DNA of 64,000 nt from an uncultured Candidatus Saccharibacteria bacterium. GTDB taxonomy: Bacteria; Patescibacteriota; Minisyncoccia; Phycocordibacterales; UBA2100. The notes beneath the pieces are model-generated. The model did not search any database. It was given only the letters and a program-made list of their open reading frames with translations, and was not told where the DNA came from. The translations under genes were made by a program, and so were the position numbers. This document shows positions 5,862 to 54,377 of the stretch, one piece after another (position 1 is the first letter of the stretch; each line of letters begins with the position of its first letter). The DNA lies in contig CAZPGE010000001.1 in the NCBI GenBank assembly GCA_964586255.1, forward strand, positions 133,907 through 197,906. The letters run 5' to 3'.

Positions 5862-5960
5862 GTCTGTATACCTCGTTTGCTTGATATTGTGCCCACTGTC
5901 AATGAGCCTTTAATGGTTATACAACAAGACGGGCTTTATATCAAGTTTCGGTGTGGATAC

Positions 5961-10218: not shown

Positions 10219-10243
10219 ACGTCGAACATAGCATCCTTTCAAA

Positions 10244-10279
10244 CTCCAGTAAATCAACCAATTGGTGGAAATACAGGAG
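10244..10279. promoter_or_regulatory. 36-bp near-palindromic operator candidate (copy B), 26 nt upstream of the PaaX-like regulator start and overlapping its putative -35 (TTTACT-N17-TATGTT)
   Basis: CTCCAGTAAATCAACCAATTGGTGGAAATACAGGAG. Same CCAATTGG core and CTCCAGTAAAT / ATACAGGAG arms as copies A and C. Confidence 0.6.
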
Positions 10280-10311
10280 TCGACATGTCTCAACGCGGCG
10301 TAGATATTGCG

Positions 10312-11021: not shown

Positions 11022-11070
11022 GTCCAAGCGATAGAAAAAAGCCCCACTGGGGCTTTTTTCTATCGCTTGG
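11022..11070. terminator. 47-bp near-perfect palindrome (CCAAGCGATAGAAAAAAGCCCCACTGGGGCTTTTTTCTATCGCTTGG); bidirectional terminator or protein-binding site
   Basis: GC stem flanked by an A6 tract on one side and a T6 tract on the other. Located between rpsI and grpE. Confidence 0.5.
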
Positions 11071-11159
11071 ACCACTCGTGGTACTGGGAAACCCACGGTT
11101 TTCCCATTCCTTCCTCCACGGGGAACCTGCTGGTTCCCCGACCCCCTCCTCCCTCAGTT

Positions 11160-24952: not shown

Positions 24953-26002
24953 TTACGCGATACGTCCTCCGCCGAGACACACATCTCCGCGATAGACGAC
25001 GAGCGATTGACCTTTCGACACGGTGTGCGCAGCGTCAAAGACCGCGGCACAAGAGCCGTCGCTATTTTCGCGTATCGTCACGTTGAACACCTGCTCCCTA
25101 TACCGAGATTGAGCTTCAGCCGTAAGGGGCATGTGAAGCTCTTGCAGCCAGTGTGTATCCACAAGATGCGCATGGAGAACTTCGGTATCTTCTCGCCTGT
25201 CAGAAACGGTAATTGTATTGCTCTGTGCATCGATGCGAACTACGTAATGCGGCTTTGCTGGCTCCGGGACAGCAATACGAAACCCGTGCCGTTGCCCTAC
25301 GGTATAGAGCGCAGCACCGTCGTGCGTGCCTATCACCTCCCCGCTCGCACTCAGGACCTCGCCTTCTGAGACATCTATGTACCGGCGGAGAAAATCTCGC
25401 ATGCTCACGTCGCCGACAAAGCAAAGTCCCTGGCTGTCGTGTTTCTGTGCTACTGGGAGTCGCATGCTTCGCGCCAATGCGCGCACATCTGTCTTGAGCA
25501 AATCCCCGACGGGAAACAGGATGCATGGCAAATGCTCGCGACTCACCCTATGGAGAAAATATGACTGATCTTTCTCCGCGTCGACGCCGCGATACAGCGC
25601 ATACGAACCGCTTTCTGCTTTTTGTATACGCGCATAGTGTCCCGTCGCGACCATATCTGCGCCGTCAGCACGGGCCCAGTCGTAAAACGAGCCAAACTTG
25701 ATGCGCTCATTGCAGTCAACGTCCGGGTTCGGAGTCTCGCCCATTCGATACGATTCGATCATTCGCTCGACGACGTCGTGCTTGTATTCACCAGATAAAT
25801 CAATCTCGCGAAAAGGAATGTCGAGTGCTACAGCGACTCGCATCGCGTCGATTCGATCTTTCTCCCACGTACACTCGATGAATTCTGGCTGCCATATCTT
25901 GATAAACACCCCGACTACATCATATTCATCGCGTTTTAGAAGTGCCGCAGAGACAGCGGAATCGACGCCGCCTGAAAGACCCACATATACCTTCCTACTC
26001 AT
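24953..26002 (-). CDS. mnmA: tRNA-specific 2-thiouridylase MnmA
   Basis: 349 aa; N-terminal VYVGLSGGVDSAVSAALL PP-loop; MnmA-like length and C-terminal domain. Confidence 0.92.
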   Translation of the reverse strand: MSRKVYVGLSGGVDSAVSAALLKRDEYDVVGVFIKIWQPEFIECTWEKDRIDAMRVAVALDIPFREIDLSGEYKHDVVERMIESYRMGETPNPDVDCNERIKFGSFYDWARADGADMVATGHYARIQKAESGSYALYRGVDAEKDQSYFLHRVSREHLPCILFPVGDLLKTDVRALARSMRLPVAQKHDSQGLCFVGDVSMRDFLRRYIDVSEGEVLSASGEVIGTHDGAALYTVGQRHGFRIAVPEPAKPHYVVRIDAQSNTITVSDRREDTEVLHAHLVDTHWLQELHMPLTAEAQSRYREQVFNVTIRENSDGSCAAVFDAAHTVSKGQSLVVYRGDVCLGGGRIA

Positions 26003-34149: not shown

Positions 34150-35310
34150 TCAGTATGCCGCGCGCGTGCGTGTAGCGTGGTATACGGAGAAGCCCGCAGC
34201 AAGGGCTGCAAGTGCGAAAGAAAACGCGAGCGCATGCGGTAATGCAAATACGCCGAGGAATGCCGCCGCCACAAGGCACAGGATGATGCGACCGAGCGCC
34301 ATCCCCATTTCTTTTAGTGCTGTATATTCGTCGACGAATGTGTGATTGTCGCCCGTTTGTTCATAGGCATGGATATCGATTCCTCTCGCGGCCGTGCGGC
34401 TCGCCGTATGGAAATACGTATCCACAAGCACAGCACCTACAAATCCGCCGACGCCGAGGCGCATGACCCAGCCAGAGGCAGCCACGAGCGGCTGTACTCT
34501 CACGGGCACCGCGTGCACGGCATCGCCAAAGAGTTTTCGCGCCACAAGTGTGAATAGAAGGGTGAGCGACATTACGACACCCAGCAGCGGATACGACCAA
34601 TCAAGCAGCGTGAAAACGGTGATGGGCCACAGGATAAAAAGCGCTGCCGCCTCAAGTCCCGACAGGACAGACGACCACAAGAGAGATCGATGGCGCTCTT
34701 CGAAGAGCTCATGAAATGTCGCCCGATACGACCACGAAAATCCTTGGTACGTGTCTTTCATCGAGAGAAGCGGGACAATCGAAGCAAGGGACAATGCGCT
34801 CGCGATGTACATAAGATACACGAGCGATTGACCTCCATTCGTAATATAGAGGCCTCCGATGAGAGGGATCAGCGCAATCACAACTTCTATCCACTCTCGA
34901 TAGCGCACCGCGCTCGTCTCCTTTGCGACCTCATATGGTATCCAATACAGAGCTCGATAAAGGCCGCTCAGTATCGCAAAAAGTGCTATACCAAGTGCGA
35001 CATCGCCGAGCACTCCTGAGAAGGCAGCGCCGAGTACTAGAAACGATGCGGCGAGTGCACAGATAGAGGCTACGAGTGAGCGCCGGTATCCGTGTCTCAG
35101 CCGCGAAGCAGTAACGGGGGTGAGCAATATGACAATCACATGAGTAAGTGCATACGTGAGCAGCACGCTTACGAATGCGCCTGAAACTGAGCGTGACTGA
35201 ATGTAGAAATACTGAAAAATAAACACCCACGCGAAGAGATGTGCGCCCGAGAGAGCGGCTCGTATAAGCAGGCGGTGCAGAGCTCTATCCTTAAGATTCA
35301 TGCGAGTCAC
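34150..35310 (-). CDS. Polytopic membrane transporter (MFS-like)
   Basis: 386-aa ORF with about 10-12 hydrophobic helices. Confidence 0.5.
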   Translation of the reverse strand: MTRMNLKDRALHRLLIRAALSGAHLFAWVFIFQYFYIQSRSVSGAFVSVLLTYALTHVIVILLTPVTASRLRHGYRRSLVASICALAASFLVLGAAFSGVLGDVALGIALFAILSGLYRALYWIPYEVAKETSAVRYREWIEVVIALIPLIGGLYITNGGQSLVYLMYIASALSLASIVPLLSMKDTYQGFSWSYRATFHELFEERHRSLLWSSVLSGLEAAALFILWPITVFTLLDWSYPLLGVVMSLTLLFTLVARKLFGDAVHAVPVRVQPLVAASGWVMRLGVGGFVGAVLVDTYFHTASRTAARGIDIHAYEQTGDNHTFVDEYTALKEMGMALGRIILCLVAAAFLGVFALPHALAFSFALAALAAGFSVYHATRTRAAY

Positions 35311-35674: not shown

Positions 35675-35725
35675 TCCCTCATTATGAGCGACCGGGACAT
35701 CTTCCGCCTGTCACACTGTGGATAG

Positions 35726-42482: not shown

Positions 42483-43736
42483 TCAGTATATCTTGCCGCG
42501 ACGCTTTCTATGCCAACCAATAGCGAATCTGTGAGCTTCGCTGTTGGCGAGCAAGATATCCTTTTCAAACGCATCTATTGACCGTTTGTCCCCCACAAGC
42601 TTCACCGGTTTGTGACGCTCATCTTTCACGACTCCGACAACCGGTATACGTACGCCGGCCTTTTTGAGCACGCGCTCGGCCGCTCGCTGCTGCGCCACGC
42701 CACCATCGACCGCAAATACGCGAGGGAGCGGCCATTCTGGGTGCGCAAGGCGACGGTCGAGCGCCTCGGTGAGTGCAGCAACGTCATTGTTTTCAACACT
42801 TTGTATTTTAAATTTACGATAGGCCGCCTTAAAGACCTCACCGCTACTCACGACTGTCATCACCGCGACGGTCTCCTTCCCCGAGGTGTGTGCGACGTCG
42901 AAGGCCTCGATACGCGCACCGCCGCCCGCAGACACTTTCTCCGCTTTGATAAGCGATACATCTTTGATGTGTTCGAGCGCCGAGCACTGCCGTCTGAGTA
43001 TCTGCGCGAGCTCAAATTTCTCCGCTTTCGCGGCAGCATGCATCTCCTTTGTAAGCTGCCGTTTCAGACCCTGAAAATTGCCGGAAAAAAGCTGTGCGAT
43101 ATGCTGGATTGTCTTTGCGTACTCGGTTCGCGACACCTCCCCTGTGCACACGCCGGGACAAAGTCCTATCTGCTTATTGAAACAGGGCTTACACACGTAT
43201 GGAAAACCGTCTTTTACATTCTTGGCCTGCCGCTGGTTCTCGCACGGCGTACATTTTGAATCTCGAAACGAAAATATCTTTCGCACAATCTTCAACGCCT
43301 CCTGGAGCGAGGCGCCTTCGGTAAACGGGCCAAACTGGTGCTTTATAGCCGACGCCTCCCAATTTTGGAAAAGTTCTCGCCCGCGCACGACCAGCACACG
43401 TGGGAAATTCTCCTTGGTGATGACAACATAGTTGAAGCTCTTGTTGTCTTTCGACATCGCATTGTACGGCGGCATATGCCGTTTGATGAGATTGGCCTCG
43501 AGAATAAGCGCTTCGAGCACTGAGTGCGCGATCTCGTGACTCACCCCACTCGCCTCCTGAACCATTTTCTCGATATGGAGCCCGCGTGTACTCGCAATAT
43601 CCGGCGAGAAGTAGCTTCTCACACGGTCGCGCAAAGATGTCGCCTTTCCTATGTAGAGGATTTTGCGGCCCTTTTTGAAGGTATAAACACCGGGCTCATC
43701 CGGCAAATCAAACTGTTTCAAGTCATCGCGCTGCAT
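42483..43736 (-). CDS. uvrC: Excinuclease ABC subunit C, short form (GIY-YIG, UvrC Cys region and RNase-H-like domain; no C-terminal HhH)
   Basis: 417 aa; GIY-YIG (PGVYTFK...ILYIGKA), C-terminal ...AFDVAHTSGKETVAVMTVV... endonuclease domain. Confidence 0.85.
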   Translation of the reverse strand: MQRDDLKQFDLPDEPGVYTFKKGRKILYIGKATSLRDRVRSYFSPDIASTRGLHIEKMVQEASGVSHEIAHSVLEALILEANLIKRHMPPYNAMSKDNKSFNYVVITKENFPRVLVVRGRELFQNWEASAIKHQFGPFTEGASLQEALKIVRKIFSFRDSKCTPCENQRQAKNVKDGFPYVCKPCFNKQIGLCPGVCTGEVSRTEYAKTIQHIAQLFSGNFQGLKRQLTKEMHAAAKAEKFELAQILRRQCSALEHIKDVSLIKAEKVSAGGGARIEAFDVAHTSGKETVAVMTVVSSGEVFKAAYRKFKIQSVENNDVAALTEALDRRLAHPEWPLPRVFAVDGGVAQQRAAERVLKKAGVRIPVVGVVKDERHKPVKLVGDKRSIDAFEKDILLANSEAHRFAIGWHRKRRGKIY

Positions 43737-43778
43737 CGTGCGAGTATACTAGAGCCCTCTTCCACCACCCACAAGTCT

Positions 43779-43876
43779 CTTGCCGGCATGTTTGAGGGGG
43801 TCTCTGCAGCACGTCGGTGCGAAGCGGAGGGAATTTTCACCAGAAAATTTCCGACCCCCGAGAATATGCCGGCAAG
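43779..43876 (+). promoter_or_regulatory. Structured leader element upstream of carA: long inverted repeat (CTTGCCGGCAT...GGGGGTC / GACCCCC...ATGCCGGCAAG) enclosing an inner palindrome GGAATTTTCACCAGAAAATTTCC
   Basis: Nested inverted repeats read directly from the sequence. Lies in the 300-nt uvrC/carA divergent intergenic region. Confidence 0.45.
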
Positions 43877-43975
43877 GGACGCCCCCACTATCCACAGCTA
43901 CGTTGCGTTTGACGCGTCGTAATCGAGGTCTATACTGCTGTTTTAATGACCTCCAAGAAGTGCCCGCAGATATAC

Positions 43976-44036
43976 AGCCCGCTTGGGGCTATTTTTTTGT
44001 CATTTTTTCATCCCGCCTCGAGCGGGGTTTTTTCTA
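43976..44036 (+). terminator. Two tandem intrinsic terminators (AGCCC-gcttg-GGGCT + T8; CCCGC-ctcga-GCGGG + T6) ending 1 nt before the carA ATG; candidate attenuator
   Basis: Hairpin plus U-tract pairs on the plus strand, with no upstream plus-strand gene. Confidence 0.5.
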
Positions 44037-44037
44037 T

Positions 44038-45096
44038 ATGCGCTTAATACTCGAAGACGGCACGGTGTTCGAGGGCACAGGCTTCGGCGCACCTACTTCA
44101 AGCGCAGGAGAGGTGGTCTTCTCAACCGGTATGACCGGCTATGTTGAGTCGCTGACCGACCCATCGTTCGCCGGGCAGATTCTTGTCTGCACCTATCCAC
44201 TTATAGGCAATTACGGGGTACCCGACGCATCGAAGTTTGAGTCAAGTCGCATGCACATTAAAGGCCTCATAGTTTCGGAGTATTCGAATACGTACTCCCA
44301 TGGAGAAGCCAAGGAATCACTCGATGCCTGGCTCAAGCGCTCGGGAGTACCCGCGATTCAAGGAATCGATACGCGCGCTCTTACCAAGAAGCTTCGTGAG
44401 CGCGGCGTTATGCTCGGCCAAATCGTAGACACAGAGCCCGGTGAATTCATCGACCCCAACAGAGAAAACCTCGTCGCGAGTGTCTCGCCAAAAGACGTCC
44501 GCACATACGGCAGTGGTCCGCTGCGCATACTCGCCGTCGACTGCGGCATGAAGGAAAACATCGTACGCGCTCTCACGAGACCGGAGACGACCGTCATACG
44601 AGTGCCCTGGAATTTTGATTTCGCGCGTGAGAGATACGACGCGATTGTGCTCTCCAACGGCCCGGGTGACCCTGAAATGTGCGACGCGACGGTGGTCAAC
44701 ATACGAAAAGCCATGAAGGAGCGGAAACCTATTTTGGGCGTGTGTTTGGGCAATCAGCTGCTCGCACTCGCCGCTGGCGCATCGACATACAAACTCAAAT
44801 ACGGACATCGTGGGCAAAATCAACCGTGCATAGACGCAGATAGCGGGCGCTGCTACATTACCTCGCAAAACCATGGTTTTGCCGTCGACGCATCCACGTT
44901 ACCGACAAGTTGGCGTGTCTGGTTTACCAACGCCAACGACGGCTCCGTCGAAGGTATTCGCCACACGTCGCATCCATGGCGCTCTGTACAGTTCCATCCC
45001 GAAGCCTCGCCCGGCCCTACCGATACCGCATGGATATTTGATGACTTTCTGAAAGAGCTCACCGTACACAGACGGATTCACGTAACTCATATATGA
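44038..45096 (+). CDS. carA: Carbamoyl-phosphate synthase small (glutamine amidotransferase) subunit
   Basis: From MRLILEDGTVFEGTGFGA...; GATase class I with catalytic Cys in LGVCLGNQLL and His/Glu near the C-terminus. Confidence 0.92.
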   Translation: MRLILEDGTVFEGTGFGAPTSSAGEVVFSTGMTGYVESLTDPSFAGQILVCTYPLIGNYGVPDASKFESSRMHIKGLIVSEYSNTYSHGEAKESLDAWLKRSGVPAIQGIDTRALTKKLRERGVMLGQIVDTEPGEFIDPNRENLVASVSPKDVRTYGSGPLRILAVDCGMKENIVRALTRPETTVIRVPWNFDFARERYDAIVLSNGPGDPEMCDATVVNIRKAMKERKPILGVCLGNQLLALAAGASTYKLKYGHRGQNQPCIDADSGRCYITSQNHGFAVDASTLPTSWRVWFTNANDGSVEGIRHTSHPWRSVQFHPEASPGPTDTAWIFDDFLKELTVHRRIHVTHI

Positions 45097-48000
45097 CGAA
45101 ATCCTTTCAAGACAACCACGAGCGCGAGACTGCTTCTTCCGGCGTGTCTCGCAGCGCGTCGTCTGCCGACCCAAGACATCGAGAGGCAGCGCTGCGCGAG
45201 CACGCGCAGACAGCGACGCCGAAGAAGCTGCCTCGTCGAGTTCTTCTGCTCGGTTCCGGCGGGCTCAAGATCGGACAAGCCGGTGAGTTCGACTATTCGG
45301 GCTCGCAGGCAATAAAGGCACTCAAGGAAGAAGGAATCGAGGTAGTACTCATGAATCCAAACATCGCGACTGTACAAACCGATGAAAAGCTCGCCGACAC
45401 CGTCTACTTCCTGCCGCTTACACTCGCTTTCGCGACGGGCGTTATAGAGAAAGAAAAGCCCGACGCCATCTTCTTGAGCTTCGGGGGCCAGACCGCTCTC
45501 AACCTTGGCCTTCAGCTGGAAGAAACGGGAATACTCAAGAAACACGGAATCGCCGTGCTTGGCACTCCCGTATCCACCATTCGTGATACGGAAGACCGCG
45601 ACCTCTTCATCGCCCGCCTGAGCGAAATCGGCGTACAGACGGCGAGGAGCAAGGCTGCACGCGCTGTCCAAGAAGCGCTTCGGGCCGCAAAGGAAATCGG
45701 ATTCCCCGTGATGCTGCGGTCAGGATTTGCTCTCGGAGGGGAAGGCTCTGGCGTCGTCAAAAATGCTCAGGAGCTCACCGACAAACTTACCGAAGTCTTC
45801 CGCAACGTGCCCCAAGTGCTCGTCGAGGAGAATCTCGGGGGTTGGAAAGAGGTGGAATACGAGGTCGTGCGCGACAAGGCGGACAATTGCATCACCGTCT
45901 GCAACATGGAAAACATTGACCCGATGGGCATCCACACTGGCGAATCTATCGTCGTCGCTCCATCACAAACGCTCTCCAATCGCGACTACCACATGCTTCG
46001 TGAAGTAGCGATTAAGACCATTCGGCACCTCGGCATTGTCGGCGAGTGCAATATTCAGTACGCGCTGCATCCCACTTCGGGCGATTACCGCGTGATCGAA
46101 GTGAACGCGCGTCTTTCCCGCTCTTCCGCACTCGCATCAAAAGCTACGGGGTATCCTCTCGCGTTCGTCGCGGCAAAGCTTGGCCTCGGATACACGCTGA
46201 CTGAGCTTAAGAACTCGGTGACAAAGAAGACGACCGCGTGTTTCGAGCCCGCGCTCGATTATGTGGTCCTCAAGATGCCGCGATGGGATCTCGCAAAATT
46301 CGAGAATGCCGCCACGAGAATCGGTACGGAGATGAAAAGTGTGGGCGAAGTCATGGCGATTGGCCGAAGCTTCGAGGAAGTGCTTCAAAAAGCAATTCGC
46401 ATGCTCAATACCGGCGCACAAGGATTCACCACACAGAAGAACGGTGCCTTCAACGTGGCCAACTATCGCAAAGAAATTCATGAGCCAACGACGCGCCGCA
46501 TCTTTGCTTTGGCGCAGGCGCTGCGCGACGGCGTAAGCATCGAGCGCATACATCAGCTCTCTAAGATTGATAGGTGGTTTCTCTCGAAGATGGAGAACAT
46601 TATTGCTATTGAAAAGCGCCTCAAGCGCGGGCGCCTCACCAAGGAGCGGATTCTTGAGGCAAAGCGTGCAGGATTCTCTGATGCGCAGATTGCCACACTT
46701 ACGAAGTCTACCGAGCTCAAGGTGCGCGCCTTGCGCAAGAAGCTCGGGGTACTACCGAGTATTAAACAAATCGACACGCTCGCCGGCGAATTCCCCGCTC
46801 GCACCAACTACCTGTATGTCACGTATCACGGCACCGAACACGACGTCGAGCGCGGTGACAATCAAATGGCTGTACTCGGCTCCGGACCATACTGTATTGG
46901 CTCTTCCGTGGAGTTTGATTGGTCGTGCGTTCAGGCACTTAAGACACTGAAGAAGGAGGGATACGACACCATCATGATCAACTCCAACCCGGAAACGGTC
47001 TCTACTGATTACGACATGTCGGATCGGCTCTACTTCGAAGAGCTGTCACTAGAGCGCATCCTCGACATCGCCGAATTCGAGAAGCCAAAGGGCCTCATGA
47101 TTTCAGCGGGTGGGCAGATACCCAACAATCTTGCACTGCCGCTTCACAAGTGCGGCCTGCCTATCTTGGGTACCTCACCTGAAGACATCAACAGAGCTGA
47201 GGACCGGCATGTTTTTTCCAAAATGCTGGACAAGCTTGGCGTCGACCAGCCCGGATGGGCAGAACTGAGCACGCTCGCGGCTGCTCGTAAGACAGCGAAA
47301 AAGCTCGGTTATCCTGTCCTCGTCAGACCTTCCTACGTTCTCTCGGGAGCTGCTATGAGCGTCGCGTACGACGAGCCGTCGCTTGTGCGATTCCTTCGCA
47401 AGGCCGTAAGTATCACCAACGACCATCCCGTGGTCATATCGAAATATATTGAGAACGCTCGCGAAATCGAGATAGATGGTGTAGCTAAAAAAGGCAAACT
47501 TGTCGTCTATGCAATCACCGAGCACGTCGAAAATGCAGGCACACACTCAGGCGACGCGACAGTGGTATTGCCGCCGCAGCGCACCTATCTCGAAACAATC
47601 CGCCGCGCCAAACAGGCAGCAAAACATATCGTTAAGGAGCTCAACATCACGGGCCCTTTTAACATCCAGTTTCTTGCAAAGGATAACAAGCTGCAGGTGA
47701 TTGAGTGCAACGTACGCGCTTCGCGCAGCTTCCCTTTCGTATCGAAAGTTACCGGATACAACTTTATAGATATCGCGACGCGCGCGATTCTTGGTCGCGA
47801 TGTCTCAGGCGAATACCATACCGTCGAGCTCGATACGGTCGCTGTAAAGTCGCCGCAATTTTCGTTTAATCGTATCAAGGGCGCGGACCCTCGTACAAGC
47901 GTGGAAATGGCATCTACGGGTGAAGTGGCATGCTTTGGTGACTCATACGCGGAAGCGCTCATCAAGTCCATGATGGCTGCGGGATTCCGTCTGCCTCGGA

Positions 48001-48401
48001 AAAATATCCTGCTGTCACTCGGAGGCGAGGAACATAAGGTGAAGCTACTTCCGGCACTCAAGAATCTATACGCGCTTGGATTTAACTTCTACGCCACCGA
48101 ACACACGGCCGACTTTCTTTCGGAACACGGCATGCGTAATAAAAAGGTATACAAACTTCATCAGAGGAAAAAGCCCAACGTCGCCGAATTACTCCACTCC
48201 GGGGAGCTGGACCTCATCATCAATATTCAGCAGCGCGCACTCAAGCCTTCGCAGGATGGTTTTGCGGTACGCAGAAAGGCGATAGATATGAATATTCCTC
48301 TTATTACAAACCGGCAGCTCGCCGAGGCGTTTATCCTCGCACTCTGTGAACTCAAGGAGATGCCTGCACCCAAAGCCTGGCACGAGTACAAAAGCGAATA
48401 G
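45093..48401 (+). CDS. carB: Carbamoyl-phosphate synthase large subunit (with ~45-aa N-terminal extension)
   Basis: 1102 aa; duplicated ATP-grasp halves, MGS-like C-terminal domain. Start overlaps the carA stop (ATGA). Confidence 0.93.
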   Translation: MTKSFQDNHERETASSGVSRSASSADPRHREAALREHAQTATPKKLPRRVLLLGSGGLKIGQAGEFDYSGSQAIKALKEEGIEVVLMNPNIATVQTDEKLADTVYFLPLTLAFATGVIEKEKPDAIFLSFGGQTALNLGLQLEETGILKKHGIAVLGTPVSTIRDTEDRDLFIARLSEIGVQTARSKAARAVQEALRAAKEIGFPVMLRSGFALGGEGSGVVKNAQELTDKLTEVFRNVPQVLVEENLGGWKEVEYEVVRDKADNCITVCNMENIDPMGIHTGESIVVAPSQTLSNRDYHMLREVAIKTIRHLGIVGECNIQYALHPTSGDYRVIEVNARLSRSSALASKATGYPLAFVAAKLGLGYTLTELKNSVTKKTTACFEPALDYVVLKMPRWDLAKFENAATRIGTEMKSVGEVMAIGRSFEEVLQKAIRMLNTGAQGFTTQKNGAFNVANYRKEIHEPTTRRIFALAQALRDGVSIERIHQLSKIDRWFLSKMENIIAIEKRLKRGRLTKERILEAKRAGFSDAQIATLTKSTELKVRALRKKLGVLPSIKQIDTLAGEFPARTNYLYVTYHGTEHDVERGDNQMAVLGSGPYCIGSSVEFDWSCVQALKTLKKEGYDTIMINSNPETVSTDYDMSDRLYFEELSLERILDIAEFEKPKGLMISAGGQIPNNLALPLHKCGLPILGTSPEDINRAEDRHVFSKMLDKLGVDQPGWAELSTLAAARKTAKKLGYPVLVRPSYVLSGAAMSVAYDEPSLVRFLRKAVSITNDHPVVISKYIENAREIEIDGVAKKGKLVVYAITEHVENAGTHSGDATVVLPPQRTYLETIRRAKQAAKHIVKELNITGPFNIQFLAKDNKLQVIECNVRASRSFPFVSKVTGYNFIDIATRAILGRDVSGEYHTVELDTVAVKSPQFSFNRIKGADPRTSVEMASTGEVACFGDSYAEALIKSMMAAGFRLPRKNILLSLGGEEHKVKLLPALKNLYALGFNFYATEHTADFLSEHGMRNKKVYKLHQRKKPNVAELLHSGELDLIINIQQRALKPSQDGFAVRRKAIDMNIPLITNRQLAEAFILALCELKEMPAPKAWHEYKSE

Positions 48402-48630
48402 GAAATTAAAAACCCCCGAACTCGACTACGCATACTAGTACGCGCAATAGTCTCGGGGGTACGCTACGCAACAACGATACAAGAACTTTTACATCCCGAT
48501 ACACTACGCGGGTGTGAAGTGCCGATTCCCACACTTCCTCACAGTCACATACACCGGGCCGGAAGGCACCAAGCCGGGTCATATGCACCGTGGTAGCCCA
48601 GGCAGTTTTATACCACGGCACAAGCCAGCG

Positions 48631-51261
48631 TCAATCCCGCTTGCCCTTGGCTTTCTTCAACATCTTCTTGAGGTAGTACCCCGTGTGAGAGCCCTCCGTA
48701 CGCGACACTTCCTCCGGTGTGCCCTTTGCTACAATCTGACCGCCGCGCTCCCCACCTTCTGGCCCCATGTCGATAAGATAATCTGCGCACTTGAGTACAT
48801 CGAGGTTGTGCTCGATGACAATTACCGAATTGCCCTTGTCGACGAGCTTCTGCAAAATGTCGATAAGCTTTGCGACGTCGTCATAGTGAAGTCCCACCGT
48901 CGGCTCGTCGAGCAAGTAGATGCTTTTGGTGATGTGGGGGCGGTACAGCTCCGATGCGATTTTTACACGCTGCGCTTCCCCGCCGGAGAGCGTGGTCGCG
49001 CTTTGGCCAAGTTCGAGATATGAAAGACCGACGTCTGCGAGAGAGCGTAGGCGATCCGATATCGCCGGTATGTCGTCGAAAAACTTCAACGCTTCTTCTA
49101 CCGTCATCGAGAGCACATCGTGAATGCTCTTCTTCTTGTACTTCACTTCGAGCGTCTCTTTCATAAAGCGTTTTCCGTTGCATACATCACACGTGACGTA
49201 CACCGTCGGCAAGAAATGCATCTCAACAGCCACGAGGCCGTTGCCTTGACACGCCTCACAGCGACCGCCCTTTACGTTGAATGAGAATCTGCCGGGTCCC
49301 CATCCGCGAGCGCGACTCTCTTCGCTCATCGCGAACATATCGCGGATGTGCGTCCACGCACCGGTGTACGTCGCAGGATTGGAGCGCGGTGTGCGACCGA
49401 TTGGTGACTGGTCGATAAGAATCGCGCGTCCAAGGTATTCAGTACCCGTAAATTCCTTCACATTGTACGTCTTGGCCGTCCGAAATCGCTTGTCGAAGCG
49501 CGCCTGCAGATTGCGGTGAAGCAGTTCGTAAAGAAACGTCGATTTACCGGAGCCAGACACACCGGTGATACCTACGAGCTTACCGAGTGGAATATCGGCA
49601 TTGAGATTTTTGATGCTAAATTTGTTGCCTCCGCGAATCTTTATCTTTCCTTTGTCTGCCGTGCGGCGTTTGTCAGGTACTGGTATCTCGGTCTCCTGAC
49701 GCAAGTATGAGAGCGTACGCGAGCCAGACTTATTGGTCTTCGCCGTAAGAAGCTCCTCGAGCCAACCTGCGGCCACAATGTTGCCTCCGTGCGTACCTGC
49801 GCCGGGTCCGATATCGACGATGTAGTCAGACGCATAAATAGTATCTTCGTCGTGCTCGACGACGATTACTGTGTTACCGAGATCGCGCAGATGCTTCAGC
49901 GTATTGATAAGTTTGTCGTTGTCTCGCTGGTGAAGTCCGATGGTCGGCTCGTCGAGTACGTAGAGCGCCCCGACGAGGCCGCTTCCAAGTTGCGAAGCAA
50001 GGCGTATGCGCTGCGCTTCACCACCGGAGAGCGTGTTGGCCTTTCTATCGAGGGTGAGGTATTCGATACCCACGTTGAGCATAAACTGCAGGCGACTTGT
50101 AATCTCCTTGATTACCTGGCGAGAGATATCCTGCTCCTTCTTGCTGAGCTTCAACTGATTGAAAAACGTCATCGCGTCTTCTATCGAAAGGGCGGCGAGC
50201 GAGACAATGCTCATGCCGGTTGCAGGCCCCTTGTGTTCGACGGGCTCATGTACCTTGCCCATGAATACGTTGAGAGCCTCGGGCCGAAGGCGTGCACCCT
50301 CACACACATCGCATGGTTCGTCGCCAAAAAAATACTTGCTACCGAGACCTTTGCACTCAGGACACGCCCCGTATGGAGAGTTGAATGAAAAAAGGCGCGG
50401 CTCAACTTCCGGGAAAGAGAATCCATCGTACGCACACATAAACTTCGCCGAGATGATGTGTGACGTACCATCGGGGTCAGTGATATGTACGAGCCCATCG
50501 CTCTCAGCGAGCGCTCGCTCTATGGCCTCGCTTGCACGCTCAAGACTTCCCTTCACATCATCGTTGAATTCCGATACGAAGATTTCATCCACGATGATGT
50601 CGATGTCGTGCCGGTCGTTCTTACCCATGACGATTCGCTCGCGAAGGGATTTCTCTTCTCCATCAACTATCGCGCGTTCAAACCCTTTGTTGAGCATGTC
50701 GTAGAGCATTTGGTAGTACTCGCCCTTGCGCCCTACCACTACGGGCGCAGAGATACGCACTTTTTCCTTCGAAACCGCCGCGGTGAGCTTTTTCTTGCTG
50801 GCGACTTTCTTGTTCTTGCTCGCCTCTTCAACTATCTCCAAGACTTTTTCAAGAATCTCTTCGTTGGTCTGCTTCTTGACCTCCCTGCCGCAAGTCGGAC
50901 AATGCGGGTGACCTATGCGCGCATAGAGCACTCGCAGATAGTCGTATATCTCGGTGATGGTCGCGACGGTCGAACGCGGATTGTTGGAGCGACTCTTTTG
51001 GTCGATAGATATTGCGGGCGAAAGACCCGTTATCTCATCGACATCGGGCTTCTGCATCTGGCGGAGGAATTGACGAGCATACGCAGAAAGTGACTCCACG
51101 TATTTTCTTTGGCCCTCGGCAAATATCGTGTCAAAAGCCAAAGACGACTTTCCGCTACCGGAAAGTCCCGTAAACACGACCATCTTCCCGCGCGGTATCT
51201 CTACCGTGACGTTCTTCAGGTTGTGCGTCCGCGCCCCTTTTATGACTATTTTATCGTCCAT
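48631..51261 (-). CDS. uvrA: Excinuclease ABC subunit A
   Basis: From [18 protein letters not shown]...; two ABC ATPase modules, zinc-finger CxxC pairs, about 877 aa. Confidence 0.95.
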
Positions 51262-51290
51262 AGTGTATCTTTTCTCTGTCTTCTGCACTA

Positions 51291-51326
51291 CTCCTGTATT
51301 TTCACCAATTGGTGAATTTACTGCAG
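51291..51326. promoter_or_regulatory. 36-bp near-palindromic operator candidate (copy C), 30 nt upstream of the uvrA ATG: CTCCTGTATTTTCACCAATTGGTGAATTTACTGCAG
   Basis: Its reverse complement CTGCAGTAAATTCACCAATTGGTGAAAATACAGGAG differs from copy A at only a few positions. Confidence 0.6.
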
Positions 51327-51415
51327 TTCGCCTAGAGAAGGAGTCTCTCAAATCTGCAAACAATTCCGACCCCCGCTTTGCGCTAGGGGTTGGTAGGGGC
51401 ACTATATCACGCGGG

Positions 51416-52333
51416 CTACAGGAGCGCTGCTTCCTCCTTGAGCTCTACGCCGAATTGGTTGAAGACCTCGAGCTTTATCATTTGTGCCAGATTTCGGACG
51501 TCGTGCGCGGTGGCCGTTCCCTGATTCACGATGTAATTGGGGTGCTGGAGGCTCGCTATCGCTCCACCTACGGTGGCGCCCTTCATGCCGGCTTTCTCTA
51601 TGAGCCAACCGGCCGGTACCCTACTCTCACGTGACTTCACACCCTTTTCTGCCTCAAACATCTCAACGATATGCGCGGGGGCAATCGGATTCATAAAGAA
51701 TGAGCCAGCTGCGCGTACATTTTGAAGATGTCTTCGCTCGCGCTCTGCTATCGTCTCGTCGGAAAGTCGAGCGCTCTCGACCGGCTCAACGGCATTGAGT
51801 TTCAGGGTCACGCTGGTGATAATCCAATCAGGGTTATCTTTGAAAAAGCTGTGCCGATATGAAAAGTCGCATACGCCGTTTTCGAAATCTTTCGTTTCAC
51901 CGGACTTCGCATTGAATGCACTGACGCTCAGCACGAAATCCTTTATTTCCGGCCCGAATGCACCCGCGTTGCCGCGCACCGCACCACCCACTGTGCCCGG
52001 AATTCCAGAGAGTTTCTCCCAGCCGCCGAAACCCTGCATGCCGCATTCTCGGATGAGCGAGAGGAGGTTGCACCCGAAGTCCGCCGTAAGCACGCCATCT
52101 TGCAGCGTGTAACTCCCCTCCACTATGTGCAGTACGACAGCCCGGAGTCCGTCATCTGGAACAAGGACGTTGCTTCCTCCCGCGAGTACGATATACGGAA
52201 GTGACTTCTCTCGCGCAAAAGCGAGCGCGTCGCGCACATCCTGCTCGTTCGCGACGTCGATAAAGTATGACGCGGGGCCTCCAATACCAAAAGTAGTGAA
52301 AGGCGCGAGCAGTATGTTTTCCTGAATACGCAT
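51416..52333 (-). CDS. murB: UDP-N-acetylenolpyruvoylglucosamine reductase MurB
   Basis: From [21 protein letters not shown]...; FAD-binding domain, MurB C-terminal domain. Confidence 0.9.
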
Positions 52334-52334
52334 A

Positions 52335-54377
52335 TTATTTTTTACCGGCCTTTGCCTTCTTCTTCGCCCCCTTGAGCAATTTCTCAAGCTCTCCTATCTC
52401 GTCGCGCAATATTGCTGCCGTCTCGAAATCCAGATTGTCCGCCGCTTCATGCATCTGCTGCCTCTTATCCTTTATCAACTTCACAGGGTCGCCACCGTCT
52501 GCCGATATATCGAGTTGCGCGAGCTCGTGTACCGCATTACGACGCGACTTCTGGATGTCTTCCATGATGTCGAAAATCCTTTTTTGAATCGTCTGCGGCG
52601 TGATGTTGTGCTTCGTGTTGTAGGCGACCTGTACGGCCCGACGACGATTCGTCTCGCCTATCGCCCGCTCCATAGAGCCGGTCATAGTGTCGGCATAGAG
52701 AATCACGCGGCCATGCACGTTGCGCGCCGCACGACCGATGGTCTGGATGAGAGAGGTCTCGCTGCGCAGAAAGCCCTCCTTGTCAGCGTCGAGTATGGCC
52801 ACCAGCTCAACTTCCGGCAGGTCGAGGCCCTCGCGGAGCAAGTTAACGCCCACGAGCACATCAAAAAGGCCCTTACGAAAATCGGTGAGTATCTCGATGC
52901 GGTCTATTGTCTTTACATCGCTGTGTATATAACGAACCTTAATCTTTTTTTCTTCAAGGAACGTGGTCAGGTCTTCCGCCATCCTCTTGGTGAGGACGGT
53001 CACCATGGACCTCGCGCCACGCGCCGTTATCCGCTCCGCTTCGCGTATAAAGTCACGTACCTGGCCTTCATACTCCCCCGAGCTCACGATGGGGCGCACG
53101 ACAATCTCAGGGTCAATAAGGCCGGTAGGCCTGATGACCTGCTCAATAGGCGTACCACTGCGCGCAAGTTCATATTTGCCTGGCGTGGCCGACGTATAGA
53201 TAGTCTGTCCGATACTGCGCTCAAACTCGTCAAACTTGAGCGGGCGATTATCGACGGCGCTCGGCAATCGGAATCCGTGTTCAATGAGCGTCTCTTTGCG
53301 CGCTCTGTCTCCTGCGTACATCGCACCTACCTGAGGAATGGTGACGTGCGACTCATCCACCACGGTCAGGTAATCTGGCGTACCGTCTGCTTTGTGCGGA
53401 AAATACGAGAGCAGCGAGTACGAAGGTTCGCCAGGTTTTCTACGGTCGAAATGACGCGAGTAATTCTCAATACCGTTGCAGTATCCAAACTCACGAATCA
53501 TGGAGATGTCTTGCCTCGTGCGACGCTTAAGGCGCTCTGCCTCAAGAATCTTTCCCGAATCGTTAAGCTTCTTAAGCTGGTCGGCAAGTTCTTGCTCTAT
53601 ATCCGCAAGAGCCGCGTCCTTTACCTCTTCGGCCGTAATGTAATGCTTGTGGGGAAAAAGAAACGCACTATCCACTTCGCGATGAATCACGCGTGTAATA
53701 GGGTCCATCTCTTGTATCGAAGCGATAGTACCGCCGGAAAGATCAAGGCGATATATTACGCGCTCTTGCGCCGGCATGATTTCCACGAGGGAGCCGAGTG
53801 GGCGAAACGTGCCGGGAGAGAGGTCGCCCGCTGTGCGTTCAAAATGCATCGATATCAGCTTGCGCGTAAGCGCTGCGCGCGTATACACCTGCCCCTTTTT
53901 GAGATTGAGAATCGCATTCTTGTATTCTATGGGGTTTCCAAGACCATAAATGCAAGAGACCGAGGCTACCACTATCACATCTGAGCGCGTAAGGAGCGCT
54001 TGTGTGGCCGCATGACGCAGCCGCTCGATATCCTCGTTGATCATCGCCTCTTTCTCTATGTACGTGTCAGTCACCGCCACGTACGCTTCCGGCTGGTAGT
54101 AGTCGTAGTATGAGACAAAGTAGTGCACGGCCGCATCAGGGAAAAAGTCACGGTACTCGGAAGCGAGCTGAGCAGCCAGCGTCTTGTTGTGTGCAATAAC
54201 GAGGGTCGGCTTCTGTACTTTTTCTATTACGTTGGCAATCGTAAAGGTCTTTCCCGAGCCCGTGACGCCAAGGAGCGTCTGGTCGCGCACGCCCTTGGAG
54301 AGTCCCTGCACGAGACTCTCTATGGCTTTGGGCTGGTCGCCCGCCGGCGTGTATGCAGACTTGATAGTGAGGGACAT
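52335..54377 (-). CDS. uvrB: Excinuclease ABC subunit B
   Basis: 680 aa; helicase motifs GVTGSGKT, DESH, C-terminal UVR domain (...AADNLDFETAAILRDEIGELE...). Confidence 0.95.
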   Translation of the reverse strand: MSLTIKSAYTPAGDQPKAIESLVQGLSKGVRDQTLLGVTGSGKTFTIANVIEKVQKPTLVIAHNKTLAAQLASEYRDFFPDAAVHYFVSYYDYYQPEAYVAVTDTYIEKEAMINEDIERLRHAATQALLTRSDVIVVASVSCIYGLGNPIEYKNAILNLKKGQVYTRAALTRKLISMHFERTAGDLSPGTFRPLGSLVEIMPAQERVIYRLDLSGGTIASIQEMDPITRVIHREVDSAFLFPHKHYITAEEVKDAALADIEQELADQLKKLNDSGKILEAERLKRRTRQDISMIREFGYCNGIENYSRHFDRRKPGEPSYSLLSYFPHKADGTPDYLTVVDESHVTIPQVGAMYAGDRARKETLIEHGFRLPSAVDNRPLKFDEFERSIGQTIYTSATPGKYELARSGTPIEQVIRPTGLIDPEIVVRPIVSSGEYEGQVRDFIREAERITARGARSMVTVLTKRMAEDLTTFLEEKKIKVRYIHSDVKTIDRIEILTDFRKGLFDVLVGVNLLREGLDLPEVELVAILDADKEGFLRSETSLIQTIGRAARNVHGRVILYADTMTGSMERAIGETNRRRAVQVAYNTKHNITPQTIQKRIFDIMEDIQKSRRNAVHELAQLDISADGGDPVKLIKDKRQQMHEAADNLDFETAAILRDEIGELEKLLKGAKKKAKAGKK

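What the first reader, a model, noticed from the sequence alone, without database searches (positions are those of the whole stretch)
43737..44037. Structured leader with nested inverted repeats and two tandem intrinsic terminators directly in front of carAB
The 300-nt uvrC/carA intergenic region has no upstream plus-strand gene, yet it contains three structural elements:
- a 24-nt-arm inverted repeat (43779..43876) enclosing the palindrome GGAATTTTCACCAGAAAATTTCC
- a hairpin plus T8 tract (43976..43998)
- a hairpin plus T6 tract (44011..44036) ending 1 nt before the carA ATG

This is the architecture of a transcription attenuator or riboswitch, possibly pyrimidine- or arginine-responsive. It could also be a small RNA gene.

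carAB itself is an unusual biosynthetic island in an otherwise biosynthesis-poor gene set.
Basis: seen in the sequence. Interest (0 to 1): 0.55.

Follow-up and report, generated by a model that had tools for sequence, protein, structure and literature searches.

The report
Leader-peptide attenuator before carAB, plus Y-RNA
In this Parcubacteria (CPR) genome, carAB is preceded by a conserved short translated leader reading frame that runs through a U-rich pause hairpin and a terminator and ends on the carA start codon, which looks like the E. coli pyrBI attenuator rebuilt on an mRNA with no ribosome-binding site, while the large inverted repeat is a separate, previously undescribed, conserved Y-shaped RNA structure found only around carAB.

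Summary
All three structures exist at about the stated coordinates.

The two hairpin/T-tract elements (T1, T2) belong to a transcription attenuator.

- **Leader.** A conserved promoter (TTGACG-17-TATACT) is followed after exactly 9 nt by an ATG. This opens a 33-codon uORF (43946-44047) that runs through T1 and T2 and stops on the carA start.
- **Conservation.** The same layout is present in 26 of 26 related Patescibacteria carA loci that have a leader. 22 of them have an ATGA stop/start overlap. T1's U-run sits at +45 and T2's at +82 in nearly all. The frame stays open even across 130-170-nt insertions.
- **Genome context.** The genome is leaderless, lacks Shine-Dalgarno sequences and has almost no other intrinsic terminators.
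- **Best model.** A pyrBI/pyrL-type, ribosome-mediated attenuator with translational coupling to carA. UTP sensing is probable but inferred.
- **The inverted repeat.** The repeat at 43775-43880 lies upstream of that promoter. It belongs to a new six-copy family of Y-shaped elements. All copies are on the + strand and all are at carAB, including one in frame inside carB (45117-45247). Compensatory changes are strong. Its function is unknown.

The parts
43743..43748 (-). -10 box (TATACT) of the divergent, leaderless uvrC gene. It ends 6 nt before the uvrC ATG (43736).
   Evidence: Sequence. The same AGTATAC motif sits in the same place in relatives. 20 of 55 genes in the window have a -10-like hexamer 4-10 nt before the ATG, most often 6 nt, against 3% of all ATGs.
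43775..43880 (+). Y-shaped structured element 'WIN-A': a 19+7 bp basal stem, a small hairpin with loop GUCG and a 10-bp hairpin with loop ACCA. It lies upstream of the leader promoter.
   Evidence: Fold -73.7 kcal/mol, z -11.4; the - strand is 20 kcal/mol weaker; five G-U pairs on the + strand. An ortholog sits at the same position in L171: gapless alignment, 43 pairs, 7 compensatory, 6 one-sided, 0 broken. Covariance model R2, built from the other family members, ranks it second in the whole window at 17.7 bits, E 0.018, and scores the L171 copy 31.3 bits, E 3e-6. Absent in L002, L162, L173 and L175.
43889..43896 (+). DnaA-box-like motif TATCCACA, 12 nt upstream of the -35 box.
   Evidence: TTAT[CG]CAC[ACT] or a close variant is at the equivalent place in L002, L003, L006, L008, L083, L084, L086, L162, L171, L173 and L175. 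TATCCACA occurs 5 times in the window against 1.04 expected. Function not tested.
43909..43936 (+). Leader promoter: -35 TTGACG (43909-43914), 16-17 nt spacer, -10 TATACT (43931-43936).
   Evidence: The only promoter-like site in 43000-45000, matching 10 of 12 positions. The -10 box is conserved in every locus with a leader. The TTGAC -35 box is seen in most of them, but not in L082, L163, L172, L173 or L174.
43937..43945 (+). 9-nt segment gctgTTTTa between the -10 box and the uORF ATG. The T-run is 43941-43944. The predicted transcription start is here or at the ATG.
   Evidence: The spacing is exactly 9 nt in all loci, against 6 nt for most leaderless genes of this genome. At least 3 T directly before 'A ATG' in 21 of 25 loci. 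The same segment precedes carA directly in L005, which has no attenuator.
43946..44047 (+). Leader uORF: 33 codons (MTSKKCPQIYSPLGAIFLSFFHPASSGVFSICA) plus TAA. It runs through T1 and T2 and ends 7-9 nt inside carA.
   Evidence: A homologous uORF is present in 26 of 26 loci with a leader. The stop lies at -6 to +7 of the carA ATG, with an ATGA overlap in 22. Leader length mod 3 = 2 in 14 of the first 15 loci. Summed log10 probability of the frames being open by chance is -10.8.
43976..43998 (+). T1: 5-bp hairpin (43976-43990) plus U7 (43992-43998). Read here as a UTP-sensitive pause hairpin and first terminator.
   Evidence: The U-run begins at +45/+46 from the uORF ATG in nearly all loci. It persists even where the hairpin is marginal (L085, L087). 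Stems differ between lineages: AGCCC/GGGCU, ACACCC/GGGUGU, CCCC/GGGG.
44003..44008 (+). Extra T6 run between T1 and T2. Relatives have a pyrimidine-rich spacer here.
44012..44033 (+). T2: hairpin CCCGC/GCGGG (44012-44026) plus U6 (44028-44033). Read here as the attenuator terminator.
   Evidence: A hairpin at +64 to +81 and a U-run at about +82 recur in most loci, with different stem sequences (GCCCGC, GUCCCC, GCUCGCGA, GUCCGC and others). Missing in L126; the U-run is degenerate in L163.
44038..45096 (+). carA (352 aa). No Shine-Dalgarno sequence and no promoter of its own.
   Evidence: Pfam CPSase_sm_chain plus GATase; upstream sequence.
45093..48401 (+). carB (1102 aa). Its ATG overlaps the carA stop (ATGA).
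   Evidence: Pfam.
45117..45247 (+). Y-shaped element 'WIN-B': an in-frame insertion of about 129 nt (43 codons) after codon 3 of carB.
   Evidence: R1 68 bits, E 3e-15; R2 91 bits. L002 carB reads MTKPKKVLLLG; the window reads MTK[SFQ...QTAT]PKK[LPRR]VLLLG. A 39-nt core is identical to the L126 copy.

Best explanation
The region holds two distinct things.

**(A) Attenuator, 43909-44047.** This is a ribosome-mediated transcription attenuator of the pyrBI/pyrL kind, built for a leaderless organism.

1. Transcription starts a few nt after the TATACT box. The mRNA begins at or 1-3 nt before the uORF AUG, so a ribosome must load on the 5' end without a Shine-Dalgarno sequence.
2. RNA polymerase reaches T1 (a weak hairpin plus U7) 45-52 nt downstream. 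When UTP is scarce, it dwells in the U-run long enough for the first ribosome to load and catch up.
3. The closely following ribosome then melts T1 and stops the T2 hairpin (+64 to +81) from forming. Transcription reads through.
4. When UTP is plentiful, the polymerase outruns the ribosome and terminates at T1 or T2.
5. The same ribosome finishes the uORF on top of the carA AUG and restarts there. carA translation therefore also depends on uORF translation.
6. The conserved T-run at the start site may add a second UTP-sensitive step: reiterative transcription or start-site switching, as at E. coli pyrBI and carAB P1.

*Shown:* the promoter, the uORF, its coupling to carA, the fixed geometry of T1 and T2, and their conservation. 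*Inferred:* pausing, UTP as the signal, and the position of the transcription start.

**(B) Y-shaped element, 43775-43880.** This is a member of a conserved family of Y-shaped structures on the carAB-sense strand, found only at carAB. Its structure is under selection. How it acts is not known. At this position it lies upstream of the leader promoter, so it is not part of the attenuated leader.
For: **uORF**
- Present in 26 of 26 loci with a leader, 26-83 codons long.
- Always starts 9 nt after the -10 box.
- Stops at -6 to +7 of the carA ATG, with an ATGA overlap in 22.
- The frame stays open across unrelated insertions: 132 nt in L002, about 126 nt in L170, about 160 nt in L007, and 93 nt net in L126, where the element replaces T2. 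The probability of each frame staying open by chance is 0.009-0.19.
- Leader lengths of 77-224 nt are all 2 mod 3.
- The peptide is not conserved. The reading frame relative to the T1 U-run differs between the window and L003. Selection therefore acts on openness and RNA, not on the product.

**Geometry**
- T1's U-run is at +45 to +51 and T2's at +82 to +87 in nearly all loci.
- Hairpin stems differ in sequence but keep pairing.

**Genome context**
- Only 3 strict terminator-like sites in 64 kb, two of them here.
- 4 of 55 genes have a Shine-Dalgarno-like 4-mer; 20 of 55 have a -10 box 4-10 nt before the ATG.
- No promoter lies between T2 and carA.
- No Arg codon in the window's leader peptide, and no conserved antiterminator.

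**Literature**
- The pyrBI terminator lies inside the 135-bp pyrL leader ORF, and pausing enforces coupling (PMC4824070, PMC5021804).
- At least 3 T shortly after the start site suffice for UTP-sensitive reiterative transcription, which E. coli carAB uses (PMC6524683).
- A carA leader peptide and pyrimidine attenuation are reported in P. aeruginosa (PMC4997734).

**Y element**.
Against: - No transcript ends, pausing or nucleotide dependence can be measured here. UTP as the signal rests only on the U-runs and on the role of carbamoyl phosphate in pyrimidine synthesis.
- No other pyrimidine or arginine gene was found in 64 kb or in the 20-kb flanks of relatives. The pathway that carAB serves in this organism is unknown.
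- The transcription start is predicted, not mapped. A 9-nt distance from the -10 box to the ATG is long for a true leaderless start.
- T2 is lost or degenerate in L126 and L163, and L005 has no attenuator at all. The device is dispensable in some lineages.
- For the Y element at 43775-43880, no conserved + strand promoter was found upstream of it. RNA-level function there is not established.
Confidence: 0.62

Rival explanations
1. The uORF/terminator device couples carAB transcription to translation in general, as a quality gate that senses ribosome availability. It does not sense UTP or any specific metabolite.
For: The architecture shows only that read-through should need a closely following ribosome. 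No pathway context ties carAB to pyrimidines in this genome.
Against: The most conserved feature is the U7 run of T1 at a fixed position, kept even where its hairpin is weak. A T-run is also conserved at the start site, including in L005, which lacks the attenuator. In the 64-kb window, only carAB has such a device.
Confidence: 0.2
2. A riboswitch or an RNA-binding protein (PyrR-like or arginine-responsive) controls T1/T2 through alternative RNA structures.
For: Two hairpin/U-tract elements lie in front of a biosynthetic operon. T1 and T2 can pair with each other (12 bp).
Against: There is no Rfam match, including PyrR. Only 28-30 nt precede T1, and they are not conserved as a structure. The T1:T2 pairing would still be followed by the U-run, so it is not an antiterminator. 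The uORF signal is left unexplained.
Confidence: 0.06
3. The promoter plus T1/T2 is a small-RNA gene of about 52 or 88 nt with a function of its own. In the window, a longer RNA might also include the Y element.
For: Attenuated leaders can accumulate as stable RNAs; this was proposed for P. syringae carA (PMC4997734). The Y element is a stable, conserved + strand structure.
Against: The sequence between the ATG and T1 is poorly conserved apart from codons 2-5. The ORF, its frame and its overlap with carA are what is conserved. No conserved promoter lies upstream of the Y element.
Confidence: 0.1
4. The Y-shaped elements, including 43775-43880, are selfish palindromic mobile elements (MITE-like or RPE-like). 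They insert at gene junctions and survive only when in frame. They have no function for the host.
For: Presence and absence vary between close relatives: the window has two copies, while L002 (CarA 96% identical) has one at a third site. The copies sit in frame in a uORF or in carB, and all three reading frames are used. A 39-nt core is identical in genomes whose CarA is only 68% identical. This resembles Rickettsia palindromic elements (PMC10969869).
Against: All six copies are at carAB and all are in the carAB orientation. None lies elsewhere in about 370 kb of Patescibacteria DNA, or in 542 kb from other phyla. Stems show compensatory and G-U-mediated changes with no broken pair. No translated copies turned up in protein databases and none in viral contigs. 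No terminal repeats or target duplications could be defined.
Confidence: 0.3

Closest known systems
E. coli pyrBI attenuator (pyrL leader peptide); the rph-pyrE attenuator works in the same way
   Same: An intrinsic terminator lies inside a short translated leader ORF. A hairpin plus U-rich tract sits some 20-35 nt upstream of the attenuator. No antiterminator is present: read-through depends on a ribosome following the polymerase closely. The downstream gene acts in carbamoyl-phosphate/pyrimidine metabolism (PMC4824070, PMC5021804; details of the pause region are from my own knowledge of Turnbough's work).
   Different: There is no sequence homology. The leader mRNA has no Shine-Dalgarno sequence and essentially no 5' UTR. 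The distance from the AUG to the U-run is fixed at 45 nt. The first element looks like a terminator itself. The uORF stop overlaps the structural gene's AUG (ATGA), which adds obligatory translational coupling. The host is a CPR bacterium. UTP dependence is untested.
Pseudomonas aeruginosa carAB leader peptide and pyrimidine attenuation (Kwon, Lu and Abdelal 1994, as cited in PMC4997734)
   Same: A leader peptide is encoded in the carA promoter region, and pyrimidine control by attenuation has been proposed.
   Different: I could not read the primary paper, so no detailed comparison was made. Pseudomonas uses Shine-Dalgarno-led translation and also has arginine control by ArgR.
UTP-sensitive reiterative transcription and start-site switching (E. 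coli pyrBI, carAB P1, codBA, upp)
   Same: A run of at least 3 T lies in the non-template strand at or near the transcription start of a pyrimidine-related operon (PMC6524683). It is conserved in 21 of 25 loci and retained in L005, where the attenuator is absent.
   Different: The start site is not mapped. The T-run lies 5-8 nt after the -10 box, so it may be upstream of, at, or just after the start.
Rickettsia palindromic elements (RPEs) and other MITEs that insert in frame
   Same: Palindromic units of about 105-130 nt are found in frame inside coding sequence (carB, the uORF). Presence and absence vary between relatives (PMC10969869).
   Different: RPEs are dispersed in many unrelated genes and encode a conserved peptide. 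The Y elements are confined to carAB, use all three frames, and keep a three-way-junction structure through compensatory changes.
carA motif RNA of beta-proteobacteria (Breaker laboratory, PMC8632094)
   Same: An orphan structured RNA found only immediately upstream of carA.
   Different: The carA motif is an extended imperfect hairpin directly before the ribosome-binding site in Polynucleobacter. No Rfam family matched the leader or the Y elements here. I did not confirm that the carA motif is among the Rfam models. The Y element is a three-way junction and can lie inside translated sequence.

Membership tests
pyrBI/pyrL-type ribosome-mediated, UTP-sensitive attenuator | Intrinsic terminator between the promoter and the first structural gene | tested here: met
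   T2 (and T1) lie between the only promoter-like site and carA. Conserved at the same position in most of 26 loci.
pyrBI/pyrL-type ribosome-mediated, UTP-sensitive attenuator | Translated leader ORF that begins upstream of the terminator and extends through it | tested here: met
   The ORF is present in 26 of 26 loci. The frame is kept across insertions; leader length mod 3 = 2; summed log10 probability of being open by chance is -10.8. Translation itself was not observed.
pyrBI/pyrL-type ribosome-mediated, UTP-sensitive attenuator | U-rich pause region, preceded by a hairpin, upstream of the attenuator | tested here: met
   The T1 hairpin plus U5-U8 (mostly U7) sits at +45, 30-37 nt before T2's U-run, in nearly all loci. 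Pausing itself cannot be tested here.
pyrBI/pyrL-type ribosome-mediated, UTP-sensitive attenuator | No antiterminator structure; the ribosome itself blocks the terminator | tested here: inconclusive
   No conserved alternative pairing was found in folds of the leaders. Absence of evidence only.
pyrBI/pyrL-type ribosome-mediated, UTP-sensitive attenuator | Read-through rises when UTP falls | not testable with these tools
   Needs in vitro transcription or reporters.
pyrBI/pyrL-type ribosome-mediated, UTP-sensitive attenuator | Sequence homology to pyrL | tested here: not met
   No Rfam match. The peptides are not conserved even among the loci studied here. The resemblance is in mechanism, not descent.
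PyrR-binding attenuator (Rfam PyrR) | PyrR binding loop in an anti-antiterminator hairpin | tested here: not met
   cmscan at E up to 10 over 43000-44800, and at E up to 1 over six related loci, gave no PyrR match.
Classical amino-acid leader-peptide attenuators (trp, his, leu) | Run of regulatory codons, with alternative 1:2/2:3/3:4 pairings | tested here: not met
   No Arg codon in the window's peptide and no codon run shared by the loci. The Trp_leader match scores 19.2 bits against a gathering score of 41 and covers only the terminator.
Riboswitch | Conserved aptamer upstream of the expression platform | tested here: not met
   For the leader: only 28-30 poorly conserved nt lie before T1, and no Rfam match. 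For the Y element the question stays open.
UTP-sensitive reiterative transcription | At least 3 T in the initially transcribed region | tested here: inconclusive
   A T3-T4 run lies directly before 'A ATG' in 21 of 25 loci. The start site is unknown.
MITE / RPE-like mobile palindromic element (for the Y element) | Many dispersed copies in unrelated genomic sites | tested here: not met
   Six copies, all at carAB. None elsewhere in the window, in about 370 kb of related DNA or in 542 kb from other phyla. Whole genomes could not be searched.
MITE / RPE-like mobile palindromic element (for the Y element) | In-frame insertion into reading frames; presence/absence polymorphism | tested here: met
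   WIN-B is in carB; the L002, L126 and L170 copies are in the uORF. L002 lacks both window copies.
MITE / RPE-like mobile palindromic element (for the Y element) | Terminal inverted repeats with target-site duplication | tested here: inconclusive
   Comparison of filled and empty sites gave no clear duplication. A possible TAT in L002 is too short to judge.

The most novel reading that the evidence does not exclude
The Y-shaped element is a new class of cis-acting structured RNA specific to carAB in Parcubacteria. It would be a ligand- or protein-binding three-way junction that works from inside translated, translationally coupled junctions (uORF-carA, carA-carB) or next to the promoter. It would tune how many ribosomes pass from one cistron to the next, or how the mRNA is processed. 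Together with the leaderless leader-peptide attenuator, it would be the first regulatory RNA system described for CPR bacteria.
Probability: 0.3. Interest if true: 0.75.

Novelty: new variant of a known kind. Interest (0 to 1): 0.6.

Why it matters
Almost nothing is known about gene regulation in CPR/Patescibacteria, and most of them cannot be grown alone.

- **Mechanism.** This locus gives a concrete, testable mechanism. A classic enterobacterial logic (the ribosome chases the polymerase, and U-runs act as a UTP clock) has been rebuilt on an mRNA with no ribosome-binding site. The ribosome must load on the 5' end, so the distance from the AUG to the pause site is held to the nucleotide.
- **Use as a model.** The locus is a natural system for studying transcription-translation coupling on leaderless mRNA. 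It is also a handle on what carbamoyl phosphate is for in these reduced genomes.
- **The Y element.** It is a small conserved RNA structure with no known relatives. It tolerates being translated. That is unusual for a structured regulatory RNA and worth biochemical study.

Tried and rejected
- **Rfam.** Three scans gave only sub-threshold chance hits (mir-31_2, Trp_leader terminator, OmrA-B) and one tRNA-Ala: 43000-44800 at E up to 10, six related loci at E up to 1, and the whole window at gathering scores.
- **Repeat within the window.** blastn-short of the intergenic region against the window found no other copy. The second copy (WIN-B) appeared only with a covariance model.
- **Protein search with a six-frame translation of WIN-B.** 8000 candidates, none significant. 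The word index was probably saturated by Arg-rich words, so the call was wasted.
- **Exhaustive HMMER search with the CarB N-terminal extension.** The single hit was an unrelated tandem-repeat protein.
- **Pattern scan of viral contigs for the Y core.** 0 hits.
- **MAFFT alignment of WIN-A with the L002 and L126 elements.** It failed. Relatedness had to be judged by covariance model and through the L171 ortholog.
- **Alignment-based covariation for T1 and T2.** Weak, because stems shift by 1-2 nt between lineages. Per-locus hairpins were used instead.
- **Inverted repeat GAGGTC-N18-GACCTC around the -10 box.** Considered as an operator and rejected: not conserved in L003, L008 or L082.
- **Phe- or Arg-codon attenuation.** Rejected. 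Arg codons are absent. The Phe codons are a by-product of the U-runs, and their frame differs between loci.
- **Hammerhead, twister and group II domain V for the Y junction.** Considered by eye and rejected: core motifs are absent and Rfam is negative.
- **Pathway context.** Pfam scans of about 45 window proteins found no pyr or arg genes.
Full report
**Where we are.** The window comes from a Patescibacteria (Parcubacteria group) genome. The closest public genome is MAG Athens0416_74, whose CarA is 96% identical (L002). The finding covers the 301-nt gap between uvrC (- strand, 42483-43736) and carA (+ strand, ATG 44038). carB follows with an ATGA overlap (45093). Pfam confirms all three genes.

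**The observation**

All three structures are real; the corrected coordinates and the chance tests are given under the observation check. In short:
- The inverted repeat 43775-43880 folds as + strand RNA into a very stable Y shape (z -11.4).
- T1 carries T7, not T8.
- T2's T-run ends 4 nt before the carA ATG.
- T1 and T2 are two of only three strict terminator-like sites in the whole 64-kb window.

**What relatives show about the terminators**

I collected carA loci in three ways:
- one scan of genome contigs;
- one scan of metagenome contigs;
- a CarA protein search followed by contig look-ups.

This gave 26 Patescibacteria loci with a leader. Their CarA is 65-96% identical to the window's. 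Most share the uvrC-carA arrangement, and some have another upstream gene.

All share one core:
- a -10 box (TATACT or close to it), preceded in most loci by a -35 box TTGAC and a 17-nt spacer;
- exactly 9 nt, usually ending TTTTA or CTTTA;
- an ATG opening a short reading frame.

In the window the promoter is 43909-43936. It is the only promoter-like site in 43000-45000. The frame is 43946-44047, 33 codons.

**The uORF is conserved as an open frame that ends on carA**
- In every locus the frame runs through T1 and T2 and stops at -6 to +7 of the carA ATG. In 22 of 26 loci the stop and start overlap as ATGA.
- Leader lengths differ (77, 83, 92, 95, 98, 134, 137, 140, 185, 224 nt in the first 15 loci). 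All but one are 2 mod 3, as the overlap requires.
- The frame stays open across large unrelated insertions in L002, L007, L126 and L170. Shuffling gives 0.009-0.19 for each of these by chance. The summed log10 over the first 15 loci is -10.8.
- The peptide itself is not conserved. The window reads the T1 U-run as AUU UUU UUG, and L003 reads it as GUA UUU UUU U.

What is kept, then, is an open frame, the RNA hairpins and the junction with carA.

**The geometry is fixed**
- T1's U-run starts 45-46 nt after the A of the ATG in nearly all loci. T2's starts at about +82.
- T1 has a weak stem (4-6 bp) but an almost invariant U7. The U-run persists in L085 and L087, where the stem is marginal.
- T2 has the stronger stem, and its sequence varies with pairing kept: CCCGC, CCCGCGA, GCCCGC, GUCCCC, GCUCGCGA, GUCCGC and others.
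- No conserved alternative (antiterminator) pairing appears in any fold.
- The 12-bp T1:T2 pairing in the window exists because both hairpins are CCCGC/GCGGG-like. It would still be followed by the U-run.

**Genome context**
- Of 55 predicted genes in the window, 20 have a -10-like hexamer ending 4-10 nt before the ATG, most often 6 nt. Only 3% of all ATGs do.
- Only 4 genes have a Shine-Dalgarno-like 4-mer.
- First genes are therefore leaderless, and later genes are translated by coupling.
- carA has no promoter and no Shine-Dalgarno sequence of its own.
- The leader's 9-nt spacing, with a T-run, departs from the genome's norm yet is invariant across loci.
- L005 has no attenuator, but carA there follows TACACT-ctaatttta directly. 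The start-site segment therefore goes with carA on its own.

**Mechanism proposed**

The arrangement matches the E. coli pyrBI attenuator in logic. In pyrBI the terminator lies inside the leader ORF, a hairpin plus U-rich pause region lies upstream of it, and only a ribosome travelling directly behind the polymerase prevents termination (PMC4824070, PMC5021804; details of the pause region are from my own knowledge).

I read T1 as the UTP-sensitive pause and first terminator, and T2 as the attenuator. The steps are set out under the best explanation. Two further points are inferred:
- The 45-nt distance from the AUG to the pause may be what lets a ribosome load on the 5' end and contact the paused polymerase. 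This is inference from published ribosome-polymerase complex geometry, from my own knowledge.
- The T-run at the start site may add UTP-sensitive reiterative transcription or start-site choice. At least 3 T near the start suffice in E. coli, and E. coli carAB P1 uses this (PMC6524683).

A leader peptide and pyrimidine attenuation have also been reported for P. aeruginosa carAB (PMC4997734).

UTP as the signal, the pause and the start site are all inferred. No pyrimidine or arginine gene lies nearby to say which pathway carAB serves.

**The large inverted repeat is something else**

It lies upstream of the -35 box. It is absent from L002, L162, L173 and L175.

*How the family was found*
- L002 and L126 carry a 115-nt Y-shaped structure between the terminators and the carA ATG. 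The two are homologous, with 10 compensatory pairs.
- A covariance model built from them (R1) found a third copy inside the window at 45117-45247 (68 bits, E 3e-15).
- That copy is an in-frame insertion of about 129 nt after codon 3 of carB. L002 lacks it.
- A fourth copy lies in L170, again between T2 and carA, with the uORF open through it (82 bits).

*Support for the structure.* On these four copies:
- 95% of cells pair, against 76.5% in shuffles.
- 14 pairs change on both sides, against 6.4 ± 1.6 in shuffles (0 of 500 shuffles reach this).
- Slid controls pair at 32-47%.

- The improved model R2, run without filters over the whole window, ranks WIN-A second: 17.7 bits, E 0.018, full length, + strand. 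The next hit scores 12.8 bits.
- The link is firmer through L171. It has a copy at exactly the same place, between the uvrC -10 box and the TATCCACA box. That copy scores 31.3 bits (E 3e-6).
- L171 aligns to WIN-A without gaps: 43 pairs, 7 compensatory, 6 changed on one side through G-U, none broken.
- WIN-A shares the family's layout: basal stem, GUCUYYGCAG, a small hairpin with loop G(U/A)CG, CGAR, and a second hairpin with loop A(C/G)CA.

*Where the copies are*
- All six copies are on the carAB-sense strand and all are at carAB.
- They occupy three positions: upstream of the promoter, uORF-carA, and carA-carB.
- None lies elsewhere in about 370 kb of related DNA, nor in 100 carA loci (542 kb) from other phyla.
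- WIN-A and the L126 copy each have five G-U pairs on the + strand. Their - strand folds are 20 kcal/mol weaker.

*What it might be*
- For a functional structure, most simply an RNA: the features above.
- For mobility: the patchy distribution among close relatives, in-frame residence using all three frames, and a 39-nt core identical between distant genomes.
- Against an RPE-like selfish element: confinement to carAB, and no translated copies in protein databases.

I cannot say what the element does. For the copy at 43775-43880 I found no conserved promoter that would transcribe it.

**Other structured insertions**

They recur at the same two junctions:
- a 164-nt hairpin in L007;
- small hairpins carrying a Shine-Dalgarno-like sequence in L008, L009 and L082;
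- a different in-frame insertion in carB of L165.

The coupled junctions of this operon therefore attract or tolerate structure.

**Verdict**
- *Observation:* confirmed.
- *Interpretation:* partly supported.
  - Right: it is an attenuator.
  - Wrong or unsupported: a riboswitch or arginine-sensing mechanism, and the repeat being part of the leader.
  - Missed: the uORF.
- *T1/T2 device:* a new variant of a known kind, namely a pyrBI-like leader-peptide attenuator on a leaderless mRNA with obligatory coupling. I found no description of such a device in CPR bacteria.
- *Y element:* an undescribed structured family of unknown function.

Noticed in passing
window 45102-45239 (within carB, 45093-48401): carB carries an in-frame 43-codon insertion after codon 3. 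It is a copy of the Y-shaped element. The CarB N-terminus reads MTK[SFQDNHERETASSGVSRSASSADPRHREAALREHAQTAT]PKK[LPRR]VLLLG, against MTKPKKVLLLG in the closest relative. The element has no stop codon in any forward frame.
   Followed up: yes
window 9577-9612, 10243-10280, 51290-51327: Three copies of a 36-bp palindrome, ACTCCAGTAAAT..CACCAATTGGTG..ATTTACAGGAGT. They lie just upstream of dnaK, of a PaaX/Cas2-like-domain regulator gene inside the grpE-x-dnaK-dnaJ cluster (where hrcA usually sits), and of uvrA. This looks like the operator of a stress or repair regulon. It is not CIRCE.
   Followed up: partly
window 43889-43896; also 5952-5959, 25156-25163, 34419-34426, 35717-35724: The DnaA-box-like octamer TATCCACA occurs 5 times against 1.04 expected. 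TTAT[CG]CAC[ACT] or a close variant is conserved 6-12 nt upstream of the carA-leader -35 box in at least 11 related loci, between the divergent uvrC and carA promoters.
   Followed up: partly
whole window: Leaderless gene organisation: TATACT/TATAAT followed by 6-7 nt and then ATG at 20 of 55 gene starts; Shine-Dalgarno-like motifs at only 4 of 55. Canonical intrinsic terminators are nearly absent: three strict sites in 64 kb, two of them T1 and T2.
   Followed up: partly
window 11022-11072: A perfect 25-nt-arm palindrome, GTCCAAGCGATAGAAAAAAGCCCCA/TGGGGCTTTTTTCTATCGCTTGGAC. It is the only other terminator-like site in the window, and it is bidirectional.
   Followed up: no
L165 4990-5110; L007 2830-2993; L008 about 4090-4190 and L008/L009/L082 just upstream of carA: Other, unrelated structured insertions lie at the same two junctions. 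L165 has a different Y-like in-frame insertion in the 5' end of carB. L007 has a 164-nt hairpin between the terminator and carA, read through by the uORF. L008 has a non-coding hairpin between carA and carB. L008, L009 and L082 share a 40-nt hairpin holding a GGAGG-like sequence 9-11 nt before the carA ATG.
   Followed up: partly
window 42483-54377: carAB is embedded among nucleotide-excision-repair genes: uvrC, then carA-carB, then uvrA, murB and uvrB. The order is conserved in L162, L163, L170 and L174. No pyrimidine or arginine pathway gene lies in the window or in those 20-kb flanks.
   Followed up: partly
L163 9602-9808, L167 2331-2579, L172 2510-2728: In some relatives a small gene of 68-82 codons (hydrophobic; no Pfam hit on record for L163 and L167) is inserted between uvrC and the carA leader. 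In L167 and L174 a further small - strand gene is there as well.
   Followed up: no
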